A stretch of DNA of 63,909 nt, the filler included, from Folioceros fuciformis (Eukaryota): NCBI GenBank assembly GCA_049999805.1. It is 5 parts of 3 records of this genome, joined end to end, with 100 filler letters (N's around TTAATTAATTAA, not from the genome) between each part and the next. Parts side by side here need not be neighbours in the genome. Positions count along the whole stretch, not along the records: positions 29,083 to 43,134 come from JBNGIO010006373.1; 4 more parts are not named here. One strand, given 5' to 3'. A program made the translations under genes and the position numbers. Each line of letters begins with the position of its first letter. Position 1 is the first letter of the stretch. Under the pieces are notes generated by a model. It made no database searches. It had not been told where the DNA came from and saw only the letters and a list, made by a program, of their open reading frames with translations. Of the stretch, positions 14,949 through 62,541 are shown piece after piece.

Positions 14949-16301
14949 TCATTCCTCTTCTCGATCCGAACGTCCGTGAGGGGGGATAGTACGATGAGAA
15001 GACTTGTCGACCGAAGCTTCCAAGGAAGAGGATGGGACGGCATCGGGGAACTTGAGCCAGGGATCCACCCGCAGGACGTAAGACCTCTGGAAGTCGTGGG
15101 GGCATGGGGGGAGCCACTTCCACACAGGAGGCTGCTGAGATAGATCACAGGCAACGCCCAGAGATCTGGAGAATATGTGTAGACTATATCCAGAAGCCAC
15201 AAACTCAAGGCAGCAGAACCACAGCTCGTCCCACCACAACAGGAAGGCGGCCTCTCCCTTCGCGGCCTGCCGATCCGGAAGCAGCTGCCTGAACATCTGC
15301 TCTGGCATCCTCTCCACCAACACCCATGTCATCCACGTCTCCTTAAACTCCCATATGAGAAGCGAAACCATGCCAGCAATGAGCGACCCGAAGAGAACCA
15401 GACAGAAGAGCCTGCCATCGATGCTCTGCAGGGAGTGCACCACCCGATGAAACAAGCTGTCCTCAAACTGACCCGGCCACTGCACGGGCAGCGGCAGCCA
15501 GTCTTCCTTCCCTAGGTCATGAAAAACCATCTGCTCCAGCTCCTCGCAAAGCCAGCACAGACCCCCGGCCCACATAGCAGCCGGCACCCCGGGTCCCTCC
15601 CGCAGCGACGTGACCGGGGAAGGAGCCTCTATCCGCCTCCACCATCCACCCGCCCTCGACGAATCGAAAACCCAAAACTCACTGCTCGTCCCACCACCCT
15701 CCGAACCCGAACCCGAGCCCGAGCCGGATCCCGAACCCGCCGCGACTGCTCTAGAGCAGACCCCGATGAGCTTGAAGTGGCCAGTACCCTCGTCCGCCAG
15801 CACTCCCCGCACGGTGCTGATCGGAGCCGGCGGGCGGGGAAGATCATACCTGGCTCCCGTGAGCGGATTCACCAGCGAGATGCTCCCGGCGGGCTGGCAG
15901 CACACCACACCTCCCACAACGCCTCCCACGGCCGACTGCGACCACCTTACGCCCTCATGCAGCCATCGGGCGAGCTCGATACTGTGCCAGGCGGCCTGCG
16001 CCGGGTCGTAGAGGCATGCCTTCTGCTCCCCTGACAAGCCTCGTCCTATCACCAGCAGCCAGGACTCGTCCTCGCACGCCGCGCCCCTGCCCGGTCCGCC
16101 TTCTTCCTGCTCCGGCAGCGCCCCTCGCAGCTCCTTCCTCCTCTCCTGCACAAAGCTGGGGTTGTGTATCACCCTGCGCCACGCCTTGCACACCAGACGA
16201 GATTGGAAGACGCTTGCAACCGGCAACCGCGCCAGGATCTTGGCTACCATCTCTATGGGAAGCTCCGCGCACGGCATTGAGCTGCCGCCGTCCTTCCCCA
16301 T
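14949..16301 (-). CDS. Intronless F-box protein (F-box plus beta-propeller/FBA-like region)
   Basis: F-box LPIEMVAKILARLPVASVFQSRLVCKAW, then LYDP..W and LVNPLTG repeats; 450-aa ORF. Confidence 0.88.
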   Translation of the reverse strand: MGKDGGSSMPCAELPIEMVAKILARLPVASVFQSRLVCKAWRRVIHNPSFVQERRKELRGALPEQEEGGPGRGAACEDESWLLVIGRGLSGEQKACLYDPAQAAWHSIELARWLHEGVRWSQSAVGGVVGGVVCCQPAGSISLVNPLTGARYDLPRPPAPISTVRGVLADEGTGHFKLIGVCSRAVAAGSGSGSGSGSGSEGGGTSSEFWVFDSSRAGGWWRRIEAPSPVTSLREGPGVPAAMWAGGLCWLCEELEQMVFHDLGKEDWLPLPVQWPGQFEDSLFHRVVHSLQSIDGRLFCLVLFGSLIAGMVSLLIWEFKETWMTWVLVERMPEQMFRQLLPDRQAAKGEAAFLLWWDELWFCCLEFVASGYSLHIFSRSLGVACDLSQQPPVWKWLPPCPHDFQRSYVLRVDPWLKFPDAVPSSSLEASVDKSSHRTIPPHGRSDREEE

Positions 16302-17188
16302 CCCGCTACACCGGCCCGGCCCGGACCGGACCGGCCTTCCTCCTCACCCCGCCCTGCCCCCAACTCAGGAGTGGGTGATGGATCGAATACTCGGCCAGCC
16401 GGCCAGACAACCAGCCCCCAAACAAACCCCGCAAGTCCGTACGCCAGAAAATGGCGGGAACCTCACTGCTCTGGGCCCTTCCTGGCCCCTGCCTGCGTCG
16501 CACCGGCCGGGCAGGCCTTCTGCATTCCGGCTCCTCCCTCATGACGTGGCATTCAAAAGTGCTTTGGGACCCGAAGCCATTTTGAATGGCAGACGCGAAG
16601 CATCGTAAAACTTCGTGTATCTTCCGAGGGCAAAGCCCCGGGGTTTGTGCAGGACAAATGGCGGGAACTTTGCTGCTCAAAGGCCTCATCCAGCTGCATT
16701 TTCCAGGGGGCCCGGATCTGCCGTCTGTCCGTCTGGCAGCGGCCTAGGTGCTCACATGGTTAGGCCTTGTTTGAATCCGGAAAGTGGCAAAGAGATGGTG
16801 ATCTTGCGGCGTAACAGCTCTTGGAATTGTGTGTGCTTGTCGGGGCTTTCGGGGTAGATAGATGCGTAGGGATTCTACCGTGTTGGGTAGTGCCATCGAA
16901 CTGCGCATTGCTTCGGCTAGATGGACCCGACGGCTAGCTACGGAATCTAAATGCGGATAATCTGTGGGCTTAAATTTCGCGGTGGTGGTTCAGGCCGCTG
17001 GCCATGGCCCCTCCAGACAATGCCGGACCTATGTACGGCATGCATGAGGAGAGGTTAATTTCGGAGATTCTCGCCGCCGGCAAAGTCCTCTGTCTTCCCG
17101 ACGCGTTGGGCTCATAGGCCGTTGGACTGTGGGCGGAAATGTGGAAAATGTGCGGGGATGTTGGCCGTGGTGTGAACAGGACTGCAGT

Positions 17189-21636: not shown

Positions 21637-22482
21637 TTTCCTTTGATCAGGTCAGCAATCACCTTCCCTCCAGTGCCGGGTCAGGGTTGTTTGTCAATTT
21701 GCTCAACCCCGTCCATGAGCTAATCGCGTAATTGCGATTGCTGGGAACCGTGGGTTGTGACGGGTGCAAGCACTGCGCCAGCGAATGTGCCTCTCTCCTA
21801 TCATTGGCTGGTGCAGGCCCGTGTTGCTCAGTCGCGGCTGGCCTCTCTCTTCTGCACTAGCCGCCGTGGCGAAACTGTCGCCCCAGCCATTAACCCCTAG
21901 TAGCAGGGCCGCAGCTTGTGGATGCCACTTGTCATCCTGTTTCTGGGTGTATGACCAAGGAGTTGCGCCCGTGGCCCGCCCCCTCGCGCCGGCCCTTGTG
22001 CCTACGTAGATGCCACGCACTTTGGCCCGTTCTAGTGCTTTTATTTATGTACACCGCTCTTCGTCAGACCAGAGTTCCTCACGGAGATATGTGATCCAAA
22101 CATGCCCAGAGGCTGCAATAATGTAGGCTGTGGGGCCCGCGCTGCGGCCAGCACCGGGACCCGGTCCTGCTGCGCGGTAATTGTGGCGTCGTAGCTGTCC
22201 ACGACATGTGACTGAGTTTCTCTTTTTGCCTTCTCTCTCTAGGGCCTAATAAGTGCCTCTCAGTCTCACGGGCAGACAGATCACGAAGGTCAGGTCTGGC
22301 TTCAGTTGCATTCCCTGTGGGAATTGCAGGGGAGTCTGATCGCGGAGCAACTTGAAGAAAATCCTCCGATGTGAGCTCGCATTCCCTTGCTCTAGTGCTT
22401 GGAGTTGTCTGGTTGGTCTGGTTGGAAATCTTGGCGGGCGTCAGTATTGATCCTTGCTTTTGGTTGGCTGGTAGATCGCACC

Positions 22483-24296
22483 ATGGCTTGGGCGATGGCG
22501 GCGTCTGTCATCTCCACTGCGGTGATGTTTGGTGTTGCTGCGGAAGAGGCTGGAGCTGTGGAGACTGCCCCGGGTTTCACCTTTTCAACGCAGAAGGTGC
22601 AGGCGTTGCTCCTTGGGCTGTTCGTGGTGGTGGTGGGAGGGATTTTGGTCTCCACGTCTTCGCAGAAGAAGCTTAAGCTGCCCCCGGGCCCGGCAGCGGT
22701 TCCCATCTTCGGCAACTGGTTGCAGGTTGGAGACGACTTGAACCACAACACGCTGCTGTCATGGGCGAAGAAGTTCGGGGACTGTTTCTTGTTGCGGATG
22801 GGGCAACGAAACTTGGTGGTGATCTCGTCCCCGGAGCTGGCGAAGGAGGTGCTCCACACCCAGGGAGTGGAATTCGGGTCGCGCACAAGGAACGTGGTGT
22901 TCGATATCTTCACCGGCAATGGACAGGACATGGTGTTTACTGTCTACGGCGATCACTGGAGGAGGATGAGGCGGATAATGACTGTTCCCTTCTTCACCAG
23001 TAAGGTCGTGTCCACTCTGCGGGAGAGGTGGGAGAGGGAGGTGGACATCACCTTGGCCGACATCAAGAGTATGCAGGGAGCTAGTACCACGGGAATTGTG
23101 ATCAGGAGGCGCTTGCAGCTCATGATGTACAACTTTATGTACCTCATGATGTTCGATCGGAGGTTTACGGGTGAGGATGACGAGGTCTACAACAAGCTCA
23201 AGGTGTTGAACGCGGAGAGGAGCAGGCTGTCTCAGAGCTTCGAGTACAATTATGGGGATTTCATCCCGATTCTGAGGCCGTTTCTAAGGAAGTATTTGAA
23301 CCACTGCCGGTACATCAAGGAGAAGCGTCTCGGGCTCTTCAAGGATTACTTCCTTGATGAACGCAAGTAGGGGTTCCTCTTCAGGAGTGGTTGGCTTTTG
23401 CCGCAGCTCGTGGCTTTGGGACCTTAAACTTTGTTGGGTTTGCTGACCGGTGAGACTTTGACCTCCAGGAGGTTATTGAGTACCAAGGGAGTGGCCACTG
23501 AGAAGCTGGGGATGGACCACATCTTTGACGCCGAGAGAAATGGAGAGATCAACGAGGACAATGTGTTGTATATTGTCGAGAATATCAACGTTGCCGGTGG
23601 GTGTTGTGTACTGGAGCAAGCTGCATCCCGTGTGGTTGTTGCATTGACTGGTTTTAGTGTCTGACTTTCGTGAGTTGTGCCTCTTTCGCTGCAGCCATCG
23701 AGACGACTCTGTGGTCCATGGAGTGGGGTATTGCTGAACTGGTGAACCATCCCCACATTCAGACCAAGTTGAGGAATGAGCTTGACGCCGTGTTGGGTAA
23801 AGGGGTCCTTGTTACCGAACCAGACTTCGCGAGTGGAAAGCTGCCTTACCTGTCTGCCGTCGTGAAGGAAACTCTCAGGTTGCACATGGCTATTCCTCTT
23901 CTGGTGCCCCATATGAATCTTCACCAAGCGAAGCTCGCTGGCTATGACATCCCCGCTGAGAGCAAGATTCTCGTCAACGCCTGGTGGCTCGCCAACAACC
24001 CAGCAACTTGGAAGAAGCCAGAGGAGTTCAGGCCTGAGAGGTTTTTGGAGGAGGAGAAGGGTGTTGAAGCCAATGGGAATGATTTTCGGTTCCTCCCCTT
24101 CGGAGCGGGTCGGAGGAGTTGTCCTGGAATTATTCTGGCCTTGCCACTTTTGGGACTTGTGTTGGGAAGGTTGGTGCAGACATTCGAGCTGCAGACGCCT
24201 CCAGGCGTGGACAAGATCGACCTAACTGAGAATGCGGGCCAGTTCAGTCTGAGAATCCAAAATCATTCGACCGTGGTCGCGAAACCTCGACCGTGA
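22483..24296 (+). CDS. C4H: Cinnamate 4-hydroxylase, cytochrome P450 CYP73A; exons 22483-23366, 23469-23596, 23695-24296
   Basis: [57 protein letters not shown]-helix, ETLR, PERF and heme motif [10 protein letters not shown]. Two introns at the typical CYP73 positions. Confidence 0.97.
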
Positions 24297-38107: not shown

Positions 38108-38661
38108 TTAAACAGCAAGGGGAATCCTGCACCGTCCTGGGTGGCAGGTTTTAACAAACGATTTGCAAGAACGATCAGCAAGGACAGTGGAGCAAAACGT
38201 CTGCATCAACCACGGAATGGTAAAACATCCAAGAGAAACAACAGTGGGACTAACCTGTGCTGTATCGATAGGCTCGTGTGTGTCTTCAGGAACCCATACT
38301 CCAGTTACCGGATCTGGTTTCCACCACTTCTGCTTACTGGGCGTAGGCGACTCTTTGACCCTATCATGATTGGCCCTCTTCCCCGTCTCCAGTATGTCCT
38401 CCCTCTGCGCATCTATAGCAGTCTTGTCGGATCCCTCTCTGGAGCTACTACTCATCCCTCGATTACCACTGCAGAGCGAAGTGATGGGGTTAAAACCTAG
38501 CCGCAGCATTACGCTTCTCCTGTACGCTGCGAACCACATCGGTAAATCGGATGCTGCGTTTGCGTTGCTTACCAATTCCATAATTCGGTGCCGCTCTCAC
38601 TCAATGCCCTGGACGTGCGCAAGAGCATGGCAGCAACGGGAGCGCCATTCACGCCCAGCAT
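38108..38661 (-). CDS. LEA_3 family (LEA5/SAG21-like) protein; exon 1 38661-38573, exon 2 38468-38255, 3' end uncertain
   Basis: W-motif WWKPDPVTGVWVPED. Exon 1 MLGVNGAPVAAMLLRTSRALS resembles an organellar presequence and splices in phase (TG|T). Confidence 0.75.
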
Positions 38662-39340
38662 CTGCCATGGCTGACATGCAACGACCCGTCGAAGCGCAGC
38701 CATGGTTGGTATCAGATCTATCACGATTACCAGCCTGCCTCCCCCCTACTTTAAAGGTAGGTCAGGCTTCTATGTCGGAATGAATTGCTGCGCACACGGA
38801 TGGACGCCTCCTGACAAAGCTATCGTTCGACGGGTATGCGTCTCGTTTAGGGTTTCCTCGCTGGCGAAGGTGGAGCAATTCGCCAAGGCCAGATCGAATC
38901 CGATCGGGTTGACGCCAAGCAAGCTGTAGAAAGTCGTGGAGACTTTTATCAACGCGATTAACGGGTTCAGCTGTTTCCAGAGTTCCGACTCCTTTTCGAT
39001 GAGAAACCACGGCTATACCTAAACAGAGAAGAAGTCTCATTGGATTGAAGACGCGAAAGAAAGGCATCGGATACCCAAGACTTGTGCTAAAATTGATGGC
39101 TCTGTGCTAGTCCATGTGCTCTTGTTCGACTGTTTCGTCCGGAGAATATCGATCTTCTGAGGGAGCAGCATAAGGCTTTGATTCACTTCTTCTTGGTCAG
39201 AATTTTTAGAGATGGTGGCAGGTGAGACTCGGATTTGCTGTAATCTCATCGTTTGTTTGAGGGTACGGCACTCGGAGCTCCTGCCCGCTGTTAGGGTTAT
39301 CTAATGATTGAGGAAAACAGGGCAATGCAGTGGAGATGTC

Positions 39341-41647
39341 ATGGCTGCCACCACCAGTGCATGCGGCTCTTCTTGCGGATGGCATCCCCTGCAGTTCCAG
39401 AATGTGTTCGTTCACCCTAAGCTCTTCTGGGGTGAATGGAGGTGGCTTAAGACAGGGGCCAATGGAGGGACTCGTCTTGTTTCTTGTGCATCCATCTCTT
39501 CCAATCAAGAAATTACGATGCAGAGAGAGCGGCAGGAGCTGTTGTGGCGCCACTTCTTCTCCACTCCCTCCGATTGGTGGGACAACAGGGCGGACAAGAA
39601 AAGCGCCCGGCATCCCGACTTCAGGCACAAAACCTCATGGGAGCCTCTATGGCTCGACAATTATCACAAGCCCGCCTGGGTAGATACGCAGCTAGCCAGG
39701 TGGGACTCGCAGCTGGGCGAAGGGCATGGGGGAGGGCAAGTGGTAGGAGACTCGGGAGTCCAAGGTCTGTGGCCGAGCGGCTCTCACCAGCCGGCCTGGA
39801 AAGATGTTGGAGGAGAAGATCCAGTGCTCCAGATCTTGAGGAGACGGTGCGAGGAGGCAGAGCTGGGTGAGGCCGTAGAAGCGTTGGATCTCTTGGTGCA
39901 ATGTGGGTGTCACATCAGCCGCACTCTGTTTTATCGTCTCCTCAAAAGGTGCATGGCACAGAAGGATCTTGCTTGTGGCAGGCGAGTTCATTCTCTTGTT
40001 GTCGAATGGGGCTTGGGGTCCAGTGCATTTTTGGCAACTCACATCATTGGGATGTATGCCTGCTATGGCGAATTGCAGGATGCAGTGCAGGCTTTTCGAG
40101 ACGTGGCTATGCCGGACATATACATGTGGTCCTCCATCATCTCAGCGCATACCAGGCACGGGCAGCCCAGCAAGGCCATCAGCTTCTACCGAGAGATGCG
40201 GGAAGCAGGGACAGGCGTCGAGGCGGATAATCACATATTCGTGGCAGCTTTATCGGCGTGTGCCGCTGCAGAGGACCTGGTTGCTGGCAAGGAGGTGCAT
40301 GCCCACATTCAGGCTAGTGCTGTCAAGGCCGACATTTTCGTTGGCAACAGCCTTGTCAATATGTATGCTAAATGTGGCAGCTTGGATGACGCTCGCAAAG
40401 TCTTTGACGGCCTGCCCAGGAGAGATGTCGTCACATGGAATGCCATGATCGCAGGGTACTCTCAGCAGGGGCTCGGGCGGGAAGCCCTGGCTCTTTACGA
40501 AAGTATGCAACGTGATGGCATCACTGTGGCTGATAACGTCACATTTGTGTCGCTTCTTCAGGCATGTGCGACTGTGGGAGCGCTGCAGCAGGGAATGCAG
40601 CTTCACACAGAGATACGGGCTAGAGGTCTGGACACTGATGGCATGATTGGTAATAGCCTGGTGAGCATGTATGCCAGATGTGGGATGTTAGACACTGCTC
40701 GCAACGTCTTTGATGCTTTGCCCAGGAGAGATGTGGTGACATGGAATTCTCTCCTCAACGGACATGCTGAACACAGCGACGGTCCCATGGCCATCCAGTT
40801 GTTCGAAGACATGCTGCAGCAAGGGGTTGAACCAAATGCGACGACTTTTACATGTCTAATGGTGGCATGCAGTCATGCTGGCCTCGTGAATGAGGGGCAT
40901 CAGTACTTCAGGATGATGGTGGAGGAATACGCAATTGTGCCTTCTGACTATCACCACAGTTGCATGGTTGATCTTCTTAGCCGCTCTGGCCAGCTGCATG
41001 AGGCGGAACGTTTACTGCGAAGCACATCATGTGTGAATGATGTGGTGGCCTGGACATGTTTGCTGAGTGCCTGCAAAGGTTACGGTGATCTAGCTTGCGG
41101 GCAAAGGTGCTTCGACCATCTTGTAAAATTGGCACCTGAAGACGCAAGTGCGTATGTGCTGCTGGGGAACCTTTATGCCAATGCCGGCAGATGGAACGAT
41201 GTGGAAAGAATCGAAAAACTGAGAAGGTCTGGAGGTGCTATGAAGAAAGCTGCAAAGGCTTGGATCGAAGTGGAGAGGAGGGTGCACGAGTTCACTGTTG
41301 GAGAAGACAGGTCCGACATCTCCTCAAAGCTGCGCAGCGTGAACAGGAGGTTGAAGGAGGAAGGGGGCCATATTCCACAGACAGTCCTGGTGTTGAAGGC
41401 AGTGCCTGAACAGGAGAAGGAGGATGCCTTGTGTGGGCATGCAGAGAAACTGGCCTTGGCTTATGGTTTGTTGAACACACCTGACGGCACAGCTTTGCTA
41501 GTCACCAAGAACCTCCGCATGTGCAATGATTGTCACAGCAGCACAAAGATAATGTCACGCCTCGAGAAGCGAGAGATCATTGTGAGAGACGCACACCGAG
41601 TTCATCAATTCGTGGATGGGTCATGTTCGTGCAGGGATCGGCTTTGA
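39341..41647 (+). CDS. PLS-class PPR protein with E1/E2 and DYW:KP-type deaminase-like domain, plus N-terminal OSB 'PDF' motif; intronless
   Basis: About 11 P/L/S repeats (DVVTWNAMIAGY, NSLVNMYAKCGSL), KKAAKAWIEV instead of the PG box, HAEKLA, KNLRMCNDCH, HRVHQFVDGSCSCRDRL. N-terminal WWDNR..K..RHPDFRHK..EPLWL. Confidence 0.95.
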   Translation: MAATTSACGSSCGWHPLQFQNVFVHPKLFWGEWRWLKTGANGGTRLVSCASISSNQEITMQRERQELLWRHFFSTPSDWWDNRADKKSARHPDFRHKTSWEPLWLDNYHKPAWVDTQLARWDSQLGEGHGGGQVVGDSGVQGLWPSGSHQPAWKDVGGEDPVLQILRRRCEEAELGEAVEALDLLVQCGCHISRTLFYRLLKRCMAQKDLACGRRVHSLVVEWGLGSSAFLATHIIGMYACYGELQDAVQAFRDVAMPDIYMWSSIISAHTRHGQPSKAISFYREMREAGTGVEADNHIFVAALSACAAAEDLVAGKEVHAHIQASAVKADIFVGNSLVNMYAKCGSLDDARKVFDGLPRRDVVTWNAMIAGYSQQGLGREALALYESMQRDGITVADNVTFVSLLQACATVGALQQGMQLHTEIRARGLDTDGMIGNSLVSMYARCGMLDTARNVFDALPRRDVVTWNSLLNGHAEHSDGPMAIQLFEDMLQQGVEPNATTFTCLMVACSHAGLVNEGHQYFRMMVEEYAIVPSDYHHSCMVDLLSRSGQLHEAERLLRSTSCVNDVVAWTCLLSACKGYGDLACGQRCFDHLVKLAPEDASAYVLLGNLYANAGRWNDVERIEKLRRSGGAMKKAAKAWIEVERRVHEFTVGEDRSDISSKLRSVNRRLKEEGGHIPQTVLVLKAVPEQEKEDALCGHAEKLALAYGLLNTPDGTALLVTKNLRMCNDCHSSTKIMSRLEKREIIVRDAHRVHQFVDGSCSCRDRL

Positions 41648-49322: not shown

Positions 49323-50756
49323 GGACACTCGGACTCATGGGCGGGTTCAAACAAGCAAAGATGGAAGCCAAGCCTGCAACAAGTTGTGCCAAATTGTGTT
49401 GTGCATCGGAGTGCGTACTGTAAGGAGCTCCTTGCCACTAATTCCCACCCTTTTCCCTTTCTTCCCTTCCTAAAACTGGAAGTAGGGACAAGGGGTGTCC
49501 GTGTCCTCCTAGTGGCAGCGGATGGAGATCCCGGGATTTTCCACCCACCACCAACAAACGCAGTGCTGCAGACCGGCAGAGCGTCAGAGTGGCAGAGCCC
49601 GGAGTGAAGGAGTTGTAAACTTGCACTAAGCAAGCTTCCAGCCAGCAGCAGACAGCCGGCAGCCAGAGCAGCAGCCAATCGGCAGGAGTAGCAACTGCCC
49701 ACCATCCCCCGCTCTGAGTACGACATGAGCGGGGTGACACCCGCGCGCATCATCGCCCAGGTACAGTGAGATGCGTTGGAGGAGGAAGGGAAAGGCAAGG
49801 TTGAGGGAAAGGGAACAAATAGCCACGACGAAGAGTTGACGAGGGGTATCGCCAGGGATAGCGGTGGCGGTAGCCGCCGCCCGTGAAGCCCGACTGCCTG
49901 ACTTCCCATCTTCTGTCACGCGCTGAGCATGGGGGATTGTGTGGACAGATTACGGCCCCACATGCCTGAATTACTCGTTCTAACCTTTTCAGCAGCAGAA
50001 AGTGGGCTCTGTCCAGCGAAAAGGTTGGGGAAAGGCAGATCGAGTCTGTCGGCGATCCAACATCAAAGCAACAGGGCGGGCGGCGAAGGATTCTCGCCAG
50101 ATCCCTACTCTTTTTATTACCATAAACCTCAACTTGGACGGCAACTAGGACACCTACCTGCAGCCGGCAGCGGGAAGCTGGAATCGGAGCCTACTTGATG
50201 TCCGCCCACTCGCCTTCACACTCTGTTGCTAACACTGTACACTGCACACCCTACACAATACAGACTACAGTCCAGTCCACACACTGTGCAGTGTAGACGA
50301 CTGTACTGCATGTATCACCATCCCCACAAAAAGCCTCTCGGGTGAAGTGTTGAAGGGTTTAATGAACCACCCGCCAACGCGGGCGCCGGCCGCCTGCCGG
50401 GATGACTCTCGCTCACCACGTACAGTATATGTAACATGTGCATGTACCACACTGTATGTATTTCAGCCACCCATGACCTCCCGTCTCACCGGTCACCTCA
50501 CTTGCTGTCACTGTCCTCGACCTTTTCCTTCTTCCTTGGACTTTCGAATTCATTTTCGTCCTTCCTCGCTGGTAGCGGATCCGATCAACAATCTTGCACC
50601 ACCAACCTCGCCGGGTTTGGGGCCCGATCTCGCTTGCTCCTGCACCTCTTTATAGTCGCCCAGGCCCTCAGACCTCTTTGGACTTAGATGTAGGAGCCCT
50701 AGCTCTGGTCGCTGCGGTTTGTCGAGTGTTGGGACGTTGGATCCGAGGTAGCGGCC

Positions 50757-51950
50757 ATGGCCGTGAGGAAGGAGCCTGAAGGAGCTGTGTTGGAAGATTG
50801 CAGGGATTCGAAGGTGAGAAGGAAGGCGGAAGAGTGGAAGATGGAGGTGAAGGAGGAGGAGGAGGAGTACCTGCCTGGCCTGCCTCAGCATCTGGCGTTG
50901 GAGTGCCTGTCTCAGGCCCCGCTGAAGGCCATGTGGAGCGTGAGCAGGAGCTGGAGGAGGCTGCTCTACCGGTGTGTCTACTTCCAGTCCATGCGGCGGG
51001 GGCATGGGCTGGCCTCGCCCTCCTCCCTCTACTTCTTGGTGCGGAGGCGGGTGGAGCCGGAGGATGATGCCCGTCACATCTTCGCCTGGCTCTCCTTTGA
51101 TCCGCTGGTGGGGAGGTGGAGCTGGCTGCCTCCAATGCCGGAGGAGGTGGAGTTTCAGCTCTCCAGCCCCGGGCTTATCGGGGTGGCGCACTCGGTGCAG
51201 ACGCAGAGCACGGAAGACCGCCTTTTCGTCGTGGCGGGGATCAAGCGGGACGACGGGGGTGCTATGGTTCCTGCGCTGCCCAGGCCCTTTGTCTTCGACA
51301 TTGCCACGCAGTCTTGGCGGGCCGGCAGGCCCTTCCCCGTGCCTAGGAAGTGGTGTGCTTGTGGCGTCGCCGGGGGAAAACTCTACGTCGCCAGCGGGTG
51401 CGGGAAGGAGTGGGACGAGGGCTTGTCCAAGCGTGCCGATCGGTATGATCCGGACCGGGATGTGTGGGAGGAGCTTGATGATCTCTCCACGTCCAAGATG
51501 AGCGGGGAGGCCATGACCGCCGTGCACTCGGCGGGAAAGCTCTATTTCTCTAGCGGGAACGGGATCTTCCTTAAGGTTGGCATGGTGTTGGATGCCGCTA
51601 CCGGTGCCTGGACCGCCATGAAACCCGGCCTCAGGCAGGGCTGGCGCCCGACCACTGTCGCGGTGAATGGACGCTTCTATGCAATCGACTGTCTGTCCGG
51701 GAAGGTGGAGGTCTACGATCGGGACGCCGATCGATGGAGGCTCTTCTTGGAGGATGCGAGGCTCCAGCGCATGAAGCACGTTGTCGTCCGCTGTGGGAAG
51801 CTCTGCGGGATTGTTCAGAGTGATGAAAGCGGGAGCCTGCTCCGGGTTGTGGATTTGATAGCTGAGCCGGTTTCGTTTCTGGACATCAATGTGCCCGAAG
51901 GCGAGGTTGTGGCCTTGCAGGTCGGGAACTCGAATCCCAATGTTCTCTGA
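50757..51950 (+). CDS. F-box/Kelch-repeat protein, SKIP25/KUF1-like; intronless
   Basis: LPGLPQHLALECL..SVSRSWRRLLY, FDP..W..LPP, PRKWCACG..GKLYVASG, SGEAMTAV..GKL, GWRP. Motif order matches the SKIP25/KUF1 clade. Confidence 0.85.
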   Translation: MAVRKEPEGAVLEDCRDSKVRRKAEEWKMEVKEEEEEYLPGLPQHLALECLSQAPLKAMWSVSRSWRRLLYRCVYFQSMRRGHGLASPSSLYFLVRRRVEPEDDARHIFAWLSFDPLVGRWSWLPPMPEEVEFQLSSPGLIGVAHSVQTQSTEDRLFVVAGIKRDDGGAMVPALPRPFVFDIATQSWRAGRPFPVPRKWCACGVAGGKLYVASGCGKEWDEGLSKRADRYDPDRDVWEELDDLSTSKMSGEAMTAVHSAGKLYFSSGNGIFLKVGMVLDAATGAWTAMKPGLRQGWRPTTVAVNGRFYAIDCLSGKVEVYDRDADRWRLFLEDARLQRMKHVVVRCGKLCGIVQSDESGSLLRVVDLIAEPVSFLDINVPEGEVVALQVGNSNPNVL

Positions 51951-57784: not shown

Positions 57785-60700
57785 TGCAGCTGGTCAAGAG
57801 TTCGTAGAAATTAGGTCTGGGAGTCAGGGCAAGCCTGTACACCCATGGCCTCCAGATGTTGATAGTGCTTGCTAGCAGGAAGATACTTTGTCAGAATGTC
57901 GGCTGTGTTTAGGTCTGTCGACACATATTGAATTTTCACATGTCGTTGCTCCACAGAATGCCGGATAAAGTGATGATGCACTTCGATGTGCTTTGTACGC
58001 GCATGGAAACGGGGGTTGGCAGTCAGAGCTATCGTGGACATGTTGTCACAGTAAATAGGAGTGGGTTGTGACTGTGGAAATCCAAGACCTGCCAGAAAAC
58101 ACCGCTCCCATACAGCTTCTTTAGCACCTTCCGTCAAGGCTTTATATTCAGCTTCGGTGGATGACAGAGCAACAGAAGATTGCTTCTTCGAGCTCCAGTG
58201 AATGGCAGTGTGATTCAAAGTAAAGCAATAGGCCGAAATGCTTCTCCTGGCATCTGGGTCTGTGGCCCAGTCAGCATCAGCATACCCACACAAGGTAGGC
58301 TCTTGATTTCGCCCCCTGAAGCATAGGCCGTGCTGCATGGTGCCCTTAAGGTATCTAAGGACGCGTTTAACCGCATTCCAGTGTGCAGGGCCAGGGTTAT
58401 CAAGGAACTGGGAGACAGAGCTCACAGCATACTGAATGTCTGGCCGTGTCCAACAACTAATGTAATTGAGGCAGCCCACGGCATGACGATAAGGAATCTG
58501 AGCCATAGCCTGGCGCTCCTCATCTGTCTGTGGACATTGATCATGAGAAAGCTTCAATCCTGCAACGCCAGGAGTAGACACGGGTTTAGTAGTGTCCAGG
58601 TGAAAACGGTGCAGGGTTTCAGCAATATATTTAGCTTGATGAAGCATAAGGGAGCCAGCTTCCAGATCACGAACAAGTTGGACACCGAGGACAAAGGTAA
58701 GAGCTCCAATGTCTTTCATGTCAAACTTCTGATGGAGCATGTCTTTGACCCAAGATAACAAGCCTGGATCGTTGGATGCGAGAATGGCATCGTCGACATA
58801 CAAAGCGAGAACCACGAGAGTACCATCCTTGTTGTAAAAATACACGTTGGCATCACCAGGGTTTTGAATGAAGCCGATGGATTTAAGGTACTTGTCAATT
58901 GTTTTGTACCACTCCCGTGCTGATTGTTTTAACCCATAAATGGTCTTCTTAAGATGGCAGACCCAATCTGGATGCTCGAGGTCCACAAAACCCTCAGGCT
59001 GCGACATATAGATGTCCTCTTCCAGCTCACCGTAGAGGAAAGCTGTGCAGACATCCATCTGCTGGAGGTCCCAAGCGTTGGCGGCAGCTAGAGCAAGTAT
59101 CATACGAATAGACTAGGTCTTTACCACAGGACTGAAAGTCTCTGTGAAGTCAATACCTGGAATCTGGGTGAAACCCCTAGCCACAAGCCGAGACTTATAT
59201 CGAGCAATCTAACCCTGGGCATTCAATTTGTGCTTGAAGACCCACTTGCAGCTGACAACTTTCCGACCTTTAGGTAAGGGGCACAATTCCCATGTATCGT
59301 TCTTTATCAAGGAGTCATACTCATCCTTGATCGAGGGGATCCAGTGTGCCTTGTCAGCACCCGTGATTGCCTCCCGATATGACTTAGGTTCAGGCTTGAT
59401 GAAGAGTGGATTGCTCACAGAAGACTTGGATTTTGGCAGGGTTACTCCAGCTCTAGGTCGTCGAAAGTCAATAGAAGCATATGGGGGTTCTGTCCACTGG
59501 GCGGGAGGATTCCTGGTGCGCTGAGGATAGCGACGTTCTTCAGGCTGTACAGCTAGAGGAACTTCAGCCACATCGTCATCATCAGTAACGGGACCAGGTA
59601 AATTGTCATTCAAATCAGAATCAGTAGAGTGGACAGAAATACCTTCTGCAGCGAGATCATTTTCAGCCTCATCCTCTGCTGCAGGCTGTTCCCTGACATC
59701 ATTAGTATCAGAAGCCTGGTCTTCTTGAACCAAGTGAGCAGGCGGTGCTACATGAGCAGCTGGATCAGGAGCCTGAAAATCTGGTACAGCAGGGTCATTG
59801 GCCTGTGGATGTGCAGGACCCGCTCCAGGGTGTTGCACGGCTGCAGGAACCTCAATGAGCACAACTCCAGGTGTGTCGTCTTGTGGAAATTCGGATGAAT
59901 CTTCCATGTTTGTCAAGTCCACATGAGTGACTCTTTCACTGTTGTCTGACAGGTGATCAAAATATGGCTTGGCAGGACACACAAGTTCTTTGAAGGTCAC
60001 GCTTCTGGCAAAGACTACTGTCGAAGTAAGTGGATCAAGCAACTTATAAGCTTTAGCCTCTTCCCCATAACCCACAAAAACAAGTGGGCGTGCTCTATCT
60101 TCTAACTTTCGTCGCCGCTCTTCACGGATATATGCATATGCTGGGGAGCCGAATACCCGCAGATGCAGCAGGCTCGGCTTTCTTCGCCATATTACCTCAA
60201 ACGGAGTTTGTCCATCCACAGCGCTTGTAAGAAGCCTGTTAAGGAGATAAGTTGCTGTAACCACTGCCTCTGCCCAGTATGCTTTGCTTAAACCTGCCCA
60301 TTCTAACATGCTTGTCATTCCTAGCAGAGTCTGGTTACGACGTTCAGCAACGCCGTTCTGTTGCTGAGTATACGGTACAATCAACTGTCGTACAACTCCC
60401 TTTTCCAGCAGGAACTGGTTGAAGTGGGCATGGGTAAATTCTCCCCTGTTGTCAGTACGAAGCTGTTGTAGCAAGCATCCAGTCTGCCTTTCCGCCATCA
60501 CCAACCATTCCTGAAAGATCTCAAACGTATCGGACTTCAACCGGAGAGGGTATGTCCAAGAGTATCTACTAAAGTCGTCAGTAATGGTAAGGTAATATAG
60601 GGCACCGCCTAAAGAGGGGACATGAATCTTGCCTGAAATGTCCGCATGTACTAACTCTAGTACCTGTGATGCACGATGAGCCACTGATTTAGGAAAAGGA

Positions 60701-62541
60701 ATTTCCTTTTGCTTGGCTATGACGCAGGCATCACAAAGAGGTAGGTCTTTAAAACATTTTGGCAAGGGCTCTCTATAGCAGTTCAAGTTCGACATTTTTA
60801 TCAACTTGTCTCTATTAGCATGACCTAGTCTAGCATGCCATAAACTGGCTTGGGCAGACTGTGATAAGTGAGCGGCATGCACAGACTCAGGGGGAATGCA
60901 TGTGAGATCAAGCTGGTACAAGTCATGAAAAAGATGTCCTTTACCTACGACCTGTCCATCCCCCCCTCGCTTCTTAAGTTCACAACTATGAGAAGTGAAG
61001 AGGAGGTCGTACTCTCTAGAAGACATTAATTGACTAACTGAAAGGAGGTGCTTGGCCATGAGGGGAACATGCAGGACGTTGTCAAGATGGAGGATGGACC
61101 CATCGTGCAACCGGAAACGACATGTGCCTGACCCAGCAATGTGCAGACCTGTACGGGTAAGTTCATCTCCCAGCAAAACCTTATCAGACGTATGAGAAGG
61201 TCGATAGTGACTTAGCAAACTTCTGTCGTTACAGATATGGGAGGTTGCCCCAGAATCTAAGTACCAACTATGAGGGGAAGGAGGACCTGCAGACCATGCA
61301 AAACAAACGGTCATGACGACAGGAGGTTTGTTAGCAGTTGATGAAGGCTTAGCGACAGTGTGGGCCTCAGCCTGCTTAGGCTTCTCGACCTTACGAGCTT
61401 CGCCAGCTTTCTTTTTTCTGCAGTCCCTCTCCCAGTGGCCCTGGATGCCACACCAATTGCAGGATCCAGGCCGCTTGCTGGAAGAAGGTCCAGAAGGTGA
61501 GTCACCAGGAGTGGGTCTACCCTTCTGTCCTTTATGCTGCTTCTGTCCTTTAGTATAAAGAACCTTGTCTGTTTTTGTTTTTCCACCCTGTGGTGTATAA
61601 TGAAGTCTGCTTTGCTCCTCTTGCAGGAGAGCACCGATCACGTCCACAAGGCTGATTTGTGGTGCTTTGCCAGCAGCTACAGCTTTGTCTGCCGCGCGAA
61701 TGGAAGCACCAAATCCGGAAACAAAGGTCTGGTAGCTGGGTGGTAGGCAAGTGAGGAGTTGAGCGACTGCATCCAACTCCGGAAATTGAGATCCTAGGTT
61801 CAGAAGCTGGGCCCTTAGTTGGCGAAACTTCAAGACGAAAGGTCCCACCTTCTTGCCTTCTCTAAGTCTCATTGAAAACAGCTCTCCACGGATTGCACAC
61901 TGCGTAAGTATGTTCTTTGCCTCGTACGTTTGCAGCAATTGTGTCCAGATTTCGTTGGAGTCTGGTAGGTAAGCCACATCGGGCAAAAGGACTTCATCAA
62001 GACCACTAATCAAGACCGCACGAGCAACGTGGTTCAGGTTGTCCCACTTCTCTATCTCATCCGCTGGAGCTCCTGCAGCTGGTTTAGGGAGGGTGCCACT
62101 AACCACATTCCACACGTGCCGAGCTTGCAGGGCAGCGGTCATTCGCACACGCCATCCATGGAACTTGGAGCCATTGAAACGGTCCTTCTCTTTAAATTCC
62201 ATGGAGAAGGATGGTGTAGGTATCACTGGCACTGGTGGAAGAGATGGAACTCCTCCACCGCCACCTCCAGCACCCCCTCCGCCTCCACCTCCAGCACCCC
62301 CTCCTCCTCCACCTCCAGCGCCCCCTCCTGTAGCCATTCTGACTTACTTTGATAAGATTATCAGGTGCTCACGGGTGATCAAGCTGATTGCATAAGGTAC
62401 TCTTCTCGAGGTAGGTCGAGATGCTGTAGGAGNNNNNNNNNNNNNNNNNNNNNNNNNNNNNNNNNNNNNNNNNNNNTTAATTAATTAANNNNNNNNNNNN
62501 NNNNNNNNNNNNNNNNNNNNNNNNNNNNNNNNCTGACAACA
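57785..62541 (-). mobile_element. Ty1/copia LTR retrotransposon, near full-length gag-pol (62337-57811) with two premature stops; LTRs probably collapsed into the flanking gaps
   Basis: Gag zinc knuckle CNWCGIQGHWERDC, protease WYLDSGATSH, integrase WHARLGH..CDAC..VHAD..LRTDN..GVAERRN, RT LQQMDV/LYVDD, RNase H YADADWA..EAEY..TKHIEVHHHFIR in copia order. Confidence 0.95.

What the first reader, a model, noticed from the sequence alone, without database searches (positions are those of the whole stretch)
41243..41647. DYW:KP-type domain ending in DRL: candidate reverse (U-to-C) RNA editor
Seen: no PG box (KKAAKAWIEV), HAEKLA rather than HSEKLA, CNDCH zinc ligands, and a C-terminal DRL instead of DYW. 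Known: DYW:KP (GRP/DRH-type) domains are restricted to hornworts, ferns and some lycophytes, the lineages with U-to-C editing, and engineered KP domains have shown U-to-C activity. Inference: this is a natural U-to-C editor candidate and a variant, with KA in place of the KP signature and DRL in place of DRH.
Basis: partly seen in the sequence, partly recalled or inferred. Interest (0 to 1): 0.72.

Follow-up and report, generated by a model that had tools for sequence, protein, structure and literature searches.

The report
Typical hornwort-type reverse RNA editor candidate
This is an intact, transcribed plant gene for an RNA-binding editing protein, one of hundreds of similar genes in its genome; it likely turns U into C in organelle RNA as known relatives do, and its odd-looking motifs are ordinary family variation.

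Summary
The motifs are real and confirmed in three sequencing runs. They end a complete PPR-E1-E2-DYW gene that is transcribed, spliced and under purifying selection. The 133-residue domain belongs to the DYW:KP clade, hornwort DRH-like subgroup: HAE, Met92, the xHP deletion, all zinc ligands and the catalytic Lys88 are kept, and it is up to 86% identical to DRH paralogues. It is not a special variant. KA occurs in 18 of 85 KA/KP pattern matches in this genome, and 33 of 88 DRx-type ends are not DRH. The host's mitochondrial cox1 DNA has Tyr at an invariant His, so U-to-C editing is likely needed. Direction is unproven: the published DRH-consensus editor (KP1) showed no activity, and another KP domain edits both ways. 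No target could be predicted because no organelle genome was available. The same motif is fused to C-to-U-type DYW proteins in a moss and a lycophyte, so it is not specific to reverse editing. Verdict: new member of a known kind.

The parts
39212..39221 (+). Short first coding exon with the likely start ATG (39212); an in-frame stop lies upstream
   Evidence: RNA contig joint; spliced frame open for 778 residues
39222..39320 (+). 99-nt GT..AG intron
   Evidence: Skipped in an X2 contig, continuous in DNA contig X1 record 1
39321..39529 (+). N-terminal extension, presumed organelle targeting peptide (not tested)
   Evidence: Sequence only; inference
39530..39706 (+). OSB-type PDF motif (about 59 residues), homologous to the ssDNA-binding motif of plant OSB1-4
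   Evidence: Profile A2 finds many named OSB1/2/3/4 proteins, e.g. P0091 OSB1 at 51% identity; HMM hit 109 bits on this protein; PMC6963530 passages
39920..40732 (+). PLS repeats L1-S1-P1-L1-S1-P1-L1-S1; 5th/last residues YS, TD, SD, VD, ND, ND, VD, ND
   Evidence: Pfam PPR hits; motif boundaries set by hand
40733..41041 (+). P2-L2-S2 repeats (NN, TS, SD)
   Evidence: the repeats resemble the designer KP motif consensus in PMC9478123 Suppl. Fig. 2 (by eye)
41042..41245 (+). E1 and E2 motifs, 34 residues each
   Evidence: Pfam E_motif E 2.7e-13
41246..41647 (+). 133-residue DYW:KP-clade, DRH-like deaminase-fold domain plus stop: K1 A2, H65-A66-E67, K88, M92, C93/C96, K101, H120, C127/C129, D131-R132-L133

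Best explanation
The gene encodes an intact, transcribed PLS-class PPR protein with a DYW:KP-clade (hornwort DRH-like) domain that likely binds one organellar mRNA site and likely converts a uridine there to cytidine. Shown here: complete gene, splicing, domain anatomy, clade placement by residues, profiles and tree, and retention of every residue reported as essential. Inferred: import into an organelle; base-by-base binding by 11 PPR repeats (predicted G,G,n,U,U,n,U,Y at -13 to -6); zinc binding by H65/C93/C96 with E67; and, by analogy with the model for designer KP proteins, attack of Lys88 on uridine C4 to give a Schiff-base RNA-protein link that is later resolved to cytidine. KA and DRL are tolerated drift in variable positions. 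The N-terminal PDF motif is probably an accessory, non-sequence-specific single-strand-binding module.
For: Residues: A66, M92, K88, K101, V119 match 42/42, 42/42, 41/42, 42/42 and 42/42 DRH-like paralogues, while PG domains have S66 (32/34) and F119 (32/34). Mean identity is 79% to own DRH-like, 70% to GRP, 51% to fern-type KP and 44% to PG domains (the DRH-like set was partly picked by similarity to the query). Tree: the PG/KP split has SH-aLRT 96 and the query lies on the KP side, among DRH paralogues, with an end branch of 0.097 (median 0.19); GRP is a separate branch (97). Profile scores: own-DRH 260.5, fern KP 184.5, PG 158.7 bits, the same pattern as a DRH paralogue. All five lysines mutated in KP6 map to retained lysines K1, K51, K58, K68, K88 (offset taken from K713 = K88). 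Purifying selection: against 35 paralogues dN is 0.09-0.23 and dS 0.78-3.0 (33 computable, 2 saturated). Host: high-depth (about 4,700-6,200x) DNA contigs match a nuclear cox1 fragment with one difference elsewhere, and that sequence has TAT (Tyr) where mung-bean COX1 has His378.
Against: KP1, the DRH-based designer domain, was not among the three of seven with U-to-C activity. Lys88 is also present in 34 of 34 PG domains, so it does not set direction. G64 and V113, present here, pushed KP6 towards C-to-U, although the U-to-C-active GRP type also has them (15 of 15). The activity of natural KP proteins was stated as unknown in 2025. The AU test did not reject a tree with query + PG on one side (p 0.365), and the query scores equally (239.3 bits) on the GRP profile and the non-self DRH profile. 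No target site was identified, and the RNA base at the cox1 U-to-C position was not itemised.
Confidence: 0.6

Rival explanations
1. Same family and anatomy, but the enzyme edits C-to-U or works in both directions: DRH-like domains may be the C-to-U-leaning branch of the KP clade.
For: KP6 does both reactions. The DRH consensus carries all three substitutions (G64, V113, H133) that made KP6 a C-to-U-only editor. KP1 gave no U-to-C. Few full PG-type DYW genes turned up (6 full-length among the stretches fetched from the top Pfam hits), although the 54-codon cox1 piece has 7 codons that look C-to-U-correctable against 1 U-to-C (read from the alignment; 2 seen edited in RNA).
Against: KP1 was also not reported to do C-to-U (no C-to-U was detected in E. 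coli). G64 and V113 are shared with U-to-C-only GRP designs. This protein has T17, A116 and V119, which favoured U-to-C in KP6, and lacks H133. Hornworts are rich in E+ proteins that could do C-to-U with a trans DYW (PMC13386178 passage).
Confidence: 0.27
2. A redundant or weakly active family member: the domain is intact, but its target has been lost or KA/DRL plus private substitutions lower its activity, so it edits nothing important.
For: The array is short, with about 6 informative repeats. Three residues are found in none of 42 DRH-like paralogues (I43, A83, Q121). In PG enzymes the last residue caps the second zinc and its loss reduces editing.
Against: Intact 778-residue frame, spliced transcript, low dN/dS, short terminal branch, D131 and K101 of the stabilising salt bridge kept.
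Confidence: 0.13

Closest known systems
Hornwort DRH-type DYW:KP PPR proteins (Gerke et al. 2020, not held and known only through PMC9478123; designer KP1)
   Same: PLS-E1-E2-DYW layout, 133-residue domain, HAE, M92, K88, D-R ending; up to 86% identity to own-genome DRH paralogues
   Different: Ala for Pro at position 2, Trp for the commoner Cys at 6 (11 of 42 paralogues have Trp), Leu for His at 133; all three occur among paralogues
Hornwort GRP-type DYW:KP (designer KP2/KP3, shown U-to-C)
   Same: Same clade, HAE, K88, G64, V113, M92; N-terminal PDF motif in 11 of 11 fetched GRP-type genes
   Different: Query keeps K101 and D131 (GRP mostly has E101 and G131, and ends in P); 70% mean identity; separate branch with support 97
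Fern-type DYW:KP (designer KP6; Ceratopteris protein P0029)
   Same: KP clade, HAE, K88, M92
   Different: About 51-55% identity; E64/L113/F133 typical of ferns; KP6 is bidirectional
DYW:PG C-to-U editors (OTP86 7O4E/7O4F, DYW1 7W86, synthetic 9KFX)
   Same: Same fold family, zinc ligands, catalytic Glu and active-site Lys
   Different: PG pair and xHP stretch absent, HAE not HSE, M92, V119 not F, no terminal Trp; 44% mean identity
OSB1-4 organellar ssDNA-binding proteins (PDF motif)
   Same: N-terminal 59-residue motif, about 33-58% identity to hits named OSB
   Different: One copy, fused ahead of a PPR-DYW editor instead of behind an OB fold; binding not tested

Membership tests
PLS-class PPR-DYW editing factor | (P1L1S1)n-P2L2S2-E1-E2-DYW architecture in one frame | tested here: met
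PLS-class PPR-DYW editing factor | HxE(x)nCxxC zinc site with catalytic Glu, plus second zinc site | tested here: met
   H65 A66 E67, C93 C96; H97, H120, C127, C129
DYW:KP clade | Groups with KP domains, apart from DYW:PG | tested here: met
   KP side of a split with SH-aLRT 96; FastTree agrees; profile 260 vs 159 bits. The AU test alone was inconclusive (p 0.365): the constraint can be met by re-rooting the poorly resolved KP side on the query
DYW:KP clade | Literal Lys-Pro pair at the domain start | tested here: not met
   K1 kept, Ala at 2. The pair is a consensus, not invariant: 18 KA vs 67 KP by pattern, 11 of 42 DRH-like paralogues have Ala, at least 6 changes on a weakly resolved tree. 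Filed in the clade on the other features; a strict by-name reading would exclude about a fifth of its paralogues
DYW:KP clade | Deletion of the xHP stretch; 133-residue domain | tested here: met
DYW:KP clade | HAE (or HCE) instead of HSE; Met92 | tested here: met
   PMC9478123
DYW:KP clade | Lys88, essential for U-to-C in designer proteins | tested here: met
   AAG at 41507; necessary but not diagnostic, since 34 of 34 PG domains have it
DYW:KP clade | Host lineage performs U-to-C editing | tested here: inconclusive
   mtDNA-depth contigs carry a Tyr codon at COX1 His378; RNA contigs over that place have 2 and 3 differences where 3 edits are expected, but the letters were not listed
DYW:KP clade | U-to-C catalytic activity | not testable with these tools
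   needs an assay
DRH subgroup | Literal DRH ending | tested here: not met
   DRL. 55 of 88 DRx-type matches end DRH and 33 do not (hand tally); called DRH-like for this reason
DRH subgroup | Nearest relatives are DRH proteins; K101/D131 kept | tested here: met
GRP subgroup | GRP ending, E101, own branch | tested here: not met
DYW:PG | PG box, HSE, terminal DYW | tested here: not met

The most novel reading that the evidence does not exclude
This is a natural U-to-C editor from the DRH branch, for which no activity has been shown. Its N-terminal OSB-type PDF motif, carried by hundreds of KP-type paralogues but left out of the designer KP editors as described, is the missing accessory module: it holds or hands on single-stranded RNA so that the Lys88 cross-link, which stays stuck in bacteria and human cells, is resolved as it is in plants.
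Probability: 0.1. Interest if true: 0.8.

Novelty: new member of a known kind. Interest (0 to 1): 0.3.

Why it matters
As one gene it matters little: it is one of hundreds of KP-clade paralogues in a lineage already described as the U-to-C model. It is still a clean test subject for an open question. No natural DYW:KP protein had been shown to edit as of PMC11845758 (2025), and the DRH consensus gave no activity. The broader lead is the PDF motif on many KP-type editors. If it affects turnover or cross-link release, it would bear on how reverse editing is completed in plants and on making usable U-to-C RNA tools.

Tried and rejected
Sequencing error behind KA or DRL: rejected. KA/DRL as a distinct variant or subclade: rejected. 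Pseudogene: rejected. PG-type placement: rejected on residues, identity, profiles and tree; the AU test gave no verdict. Target prediction: not possible. G000 showed no rbcL or psaA/B and only a short nuclear cox1 fragment; by eye, the bases upstream of the cox1 Tyr codon do not fit this protein's code. PDF motif as a U-to-C-specific marker: rejected, since it also precedes PG-box/HSE DYW domains in Ceratodon (P0175) and Diphasiastrum (P0133, P0137, P0150) and HSE-type ones in Sphagnum (P0145), and precedes PPR proteins of Riccia and Adiantum. Blank for the PDF motif: single-sequence homologue search, ESM Atlas, Pfam, PDB (only weak CP29 matches, E 0.04 or worse); the representative search gave 1026 unnamed hits at E up to 0.001. 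The run search listed no holder on record as RNA; X2 was judged RNA from its spliced joints. X24 gave no cover of the cox1 fragment. Earlier scan findings: none. No structure was predicted.

Full report
Observation. The finding is the 3' end of one open frame, 39308-41647 (+). Pfam finds PPR repeats, an E motif and DYW_deaminase (E 1.1e-34). Contigs of runs X1 and X3 (DNA-type, one sample) and X2 (another study) cover the domain end with no differing letters. One X2 contig skips 99 bases with GT..AG ends at 39222-39320 where X1 is continuous, so X2 is RNA and the gene is transcribed and spliced. The spliced frame begins at ATG 39212 and gives 778 residues. That contig also runs into the opposite-strand neighbour, so it does not show one transcript or a start site.

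Anatomy. After a presumed targeting region come a PDF motif (39530-39706), L1-S1-P1-L1-S1-P1-L1-S1-P2-L2-S2, E1, E2 and a 133-residue DYW domain from 41246 (boundaries set by hand). Numbered from K1, the domain reproduces the positions in PMC11845758 (T17, G64, K88, V113, A116, V119) and M92 in PMC9478123. Against solved DYW:PG structures it lacks the PG pair and four residues of the xHP region but keeps both zinc sites.

Family context. The domain search of G000 (87 Mb) gave 557 candidates; the 150 scored are 67-100% identical to the query. A strict pattern found 18 KA (the query included) and 67 KP starts, with 0 in the reversed controls. A DRx-stop pattern gave 88 matches. My hand tally: DRH 55, DRP 9, DRN 5, DRQ 4, DRI 3, DRA 2, DRC 2, DRR 2, and one each of DRK, DRF, DRL (this gene), DSC, DSQ and one with an earlier stop. 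DRL is thus unique as a triplet, but the last position is freely variable, and 3 of 42 DRH-like paralogues end in Leu. These counts are lower bounds. Hornwort origin is inferred, not shown: the genome holds both DRH and GRP types, which PMC9478123 describes as the two hornwort KP variants, and the nearest hit named to species is a Ceratopteris protein at 55%.

Classification. I aligned 126 domains: 60 fetched own-genome ORFs, the query and 65 of the 86 database hits. The 21 hits dropped were 15 near-duplicate grass PG proteins and 6 others, mostly with irregular ends. Diagnostic columns side with hornwort KP throughout. An IQ-TREE quick tree on a 75-row subsample separates PG from KP with SH-aLRT 96 and places the query among DRH paralogues on a short branch; no starred branch resolves its exact sisters. 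The AU test against 'query + PG on one side' did not reject (p 0.365); with 134 columns and a star-like KP group that constraint can be met by re-rooting, so I count it as no verdict. Profile scores were own-DRH 260.5, other-DRH 239.3, GRP 239.3, fern 184.5, PG 158.7 bits, nearly the same as DRH paralogue L091 and unlike GRP paralogue L082; scores across profiles are not strictly comparable. The published PG/WW/KP HMMs were not available. dN is about a tenth of dS against 35 paralogues.

Mechanism. In designer KP proteins, Lys88 is essential for U-to-C editing and is proposed to attack uridine C4, leaving an RNA-protein cross-link that persists in bacteria and human cells but not in a fern (PMC11713852, PMC11845758, PMC11332814). 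This protein keeps K88 and the four other lysines tested. The lysine of 'KP' is kept, and its mutation lowered KP6 activity; I saw no test of the proline in the text I read. In a PG structure the last residue caps the structural zinc and the Asp pairs with a Lys; both partners are kept here. So nothing argues that KA or DRL changes the chemistry. Direction remains inferred. K88 is universal in DYW domains. KP1, built on DRH proteins, was not among the active designs, and KP6 works both ways. The residues that tilt KP6 are mixed here: T17, A116 and V119 toward U-to-C; G64 and V113 toward C-to-U; neither C6 nor H133.

Host editing. A nuclear cox1 fragment (L131:1502-1684) is matched by DNA contigs at 4,700-6,200x depth with a single difference, so it reports the mitochondrial sequence. 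It reads Tyr (TAT) where COX1 of PDB 7jro has His378; that this His is a haem a3 ligand is recalled. A U-to-C edit would restore it. RNA contigs show two C-to-U-type changes (1538, 1607). Two RNA contigs over the Tyr codon carry 2 and 3 differences in a stretch where three edits are expected, but the tool did not list them, so U-to-C is inferred from DNA and not seen. The RNA and DNA runs are from different samples.

Target. With L2, S2 and E1 at -5, -4 and -3 (PMC9478123), the code gives G(-13), G(-12), U(-10), U(-9), U(-7), C/U(-6). TD:G and ND:U are from PMC12733224; SD:G and NN:C/U are recalled. No organelle genome was in G000, so no scan was run.

PDF motif. The N-terminal motif has 438 candidates in G000; most of the 150 scored lie in long open frames typical of PPR genes. 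A profile of 25 copies retrieves many proteins named OSB1-OSB4, whose PDF motif is reported sufficient for ssDNA binding. Among fetched ORFs it is present in 11 of 11 GRP-type, 21 of 42 DRH-like and 0 of 6 full-length PG-type genes; separate upstream exons would be missed. A seventh PG-side frame, L077, has a partial PDF motif joined to a short DYW domain with no PPR hit in that frame. The motif is also fused to PG-type DYW proteins in Ceratodon and Diphasiastrum, so it is an old fusion in seed-free plants, not a reverse-editing marker. I found no paper describing it: searches were (uninformative), plus term look-ups in PMC13386178, PMC9459714 and PMC10482289. I recall, without being able to check, that Gerke et al. 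2020 may mention a conserved N-terminal domain in these proteins; that paper was not held.

What I read. PMC9478123: parts 1-3 of 6 and supplement 2 (the DYW alignment figure is not held as text). PMC11845758: parts 1-2 of 4. PMC11713852: parts 1-2 of 3. PMC11332814: part 1 of 6 and passages. PMC13324415: passages and section 13. Passages only: PMC13386178, PMC10030945, PMC6963530, PMC10482289, PMC9508816, PMC12733224. PMC9459714: term look-up with no hits. Gerke 2020 and Gutmann 2020: not seen, known through citing papers; their supplements (editomes, HMMs, candidate lists) could bear directly on this gene.

Verdict. A real, expressed, selected member of the known DYW:KP clade (DRH-like), likely a U-to-C editor (0.6), with ordinary motif variation. 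New member of a known kind; interest 0.3, most of it from the untested direction of DRH-type enzymes and the PDF fusion.

Noticed in passing
window 39530-39706 (+): OSB-type PDF motif at the N-terminus of this editor and of hundreds of paralogues (438 candidates); no Pfam model and no paper found on the fusion.
   Followed up: yes
L077:15-800 (-) (G000:C2033): Open frame joining a partial PDF motif, a charged linker and a short HSE/DYW domain with no PPR repeats in the frame; could be a trans-acting DYW donor for E+ proteins. Upstream exons not examined.
   Followed up: partly
L131:1502-1684 (G000:C1915): Recent nuclear copy of unedited mitochondrial cox1, one base from the mtDNA-depth contigs; shows one U-to-C-type and seven C-to-U-type codons.
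   Followed up: partly
window 38108-38596 (-): LEA_3-family gene (Pfam E 7e-8) head-to-head with the PPR gene, with spliced CT..AC joints; one RNA contig runs across both 5' regions, suggesting overlapping or very close divergent transcripts.
   Followed up: partly
window 57814-62343 (-): Copia-type retroelement, gag-integrase and reverse transcriptase in two frames, flanked by runs of N.
   Followed up: no
L010/L023, L013, L019/L021 (G000 C5800, C6162, C6265): Several DRH-like genes sit as close tail-to-tail pairs, about 1 kb apart on opposite strands.
   Followed up: no
L087 (G000:C6235): GRP-type gene with two PDF motifs; database proteins P0089 and P0090 carry three ahead of PPR arrays.
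   Followed up: no
window 14952-16343 (-), 22396-23367 (+), 50703-51947 (+): Ordinary neighbours: F-box protein, cytochrome P450, Kelch-repeat protein.
   Followed up: no
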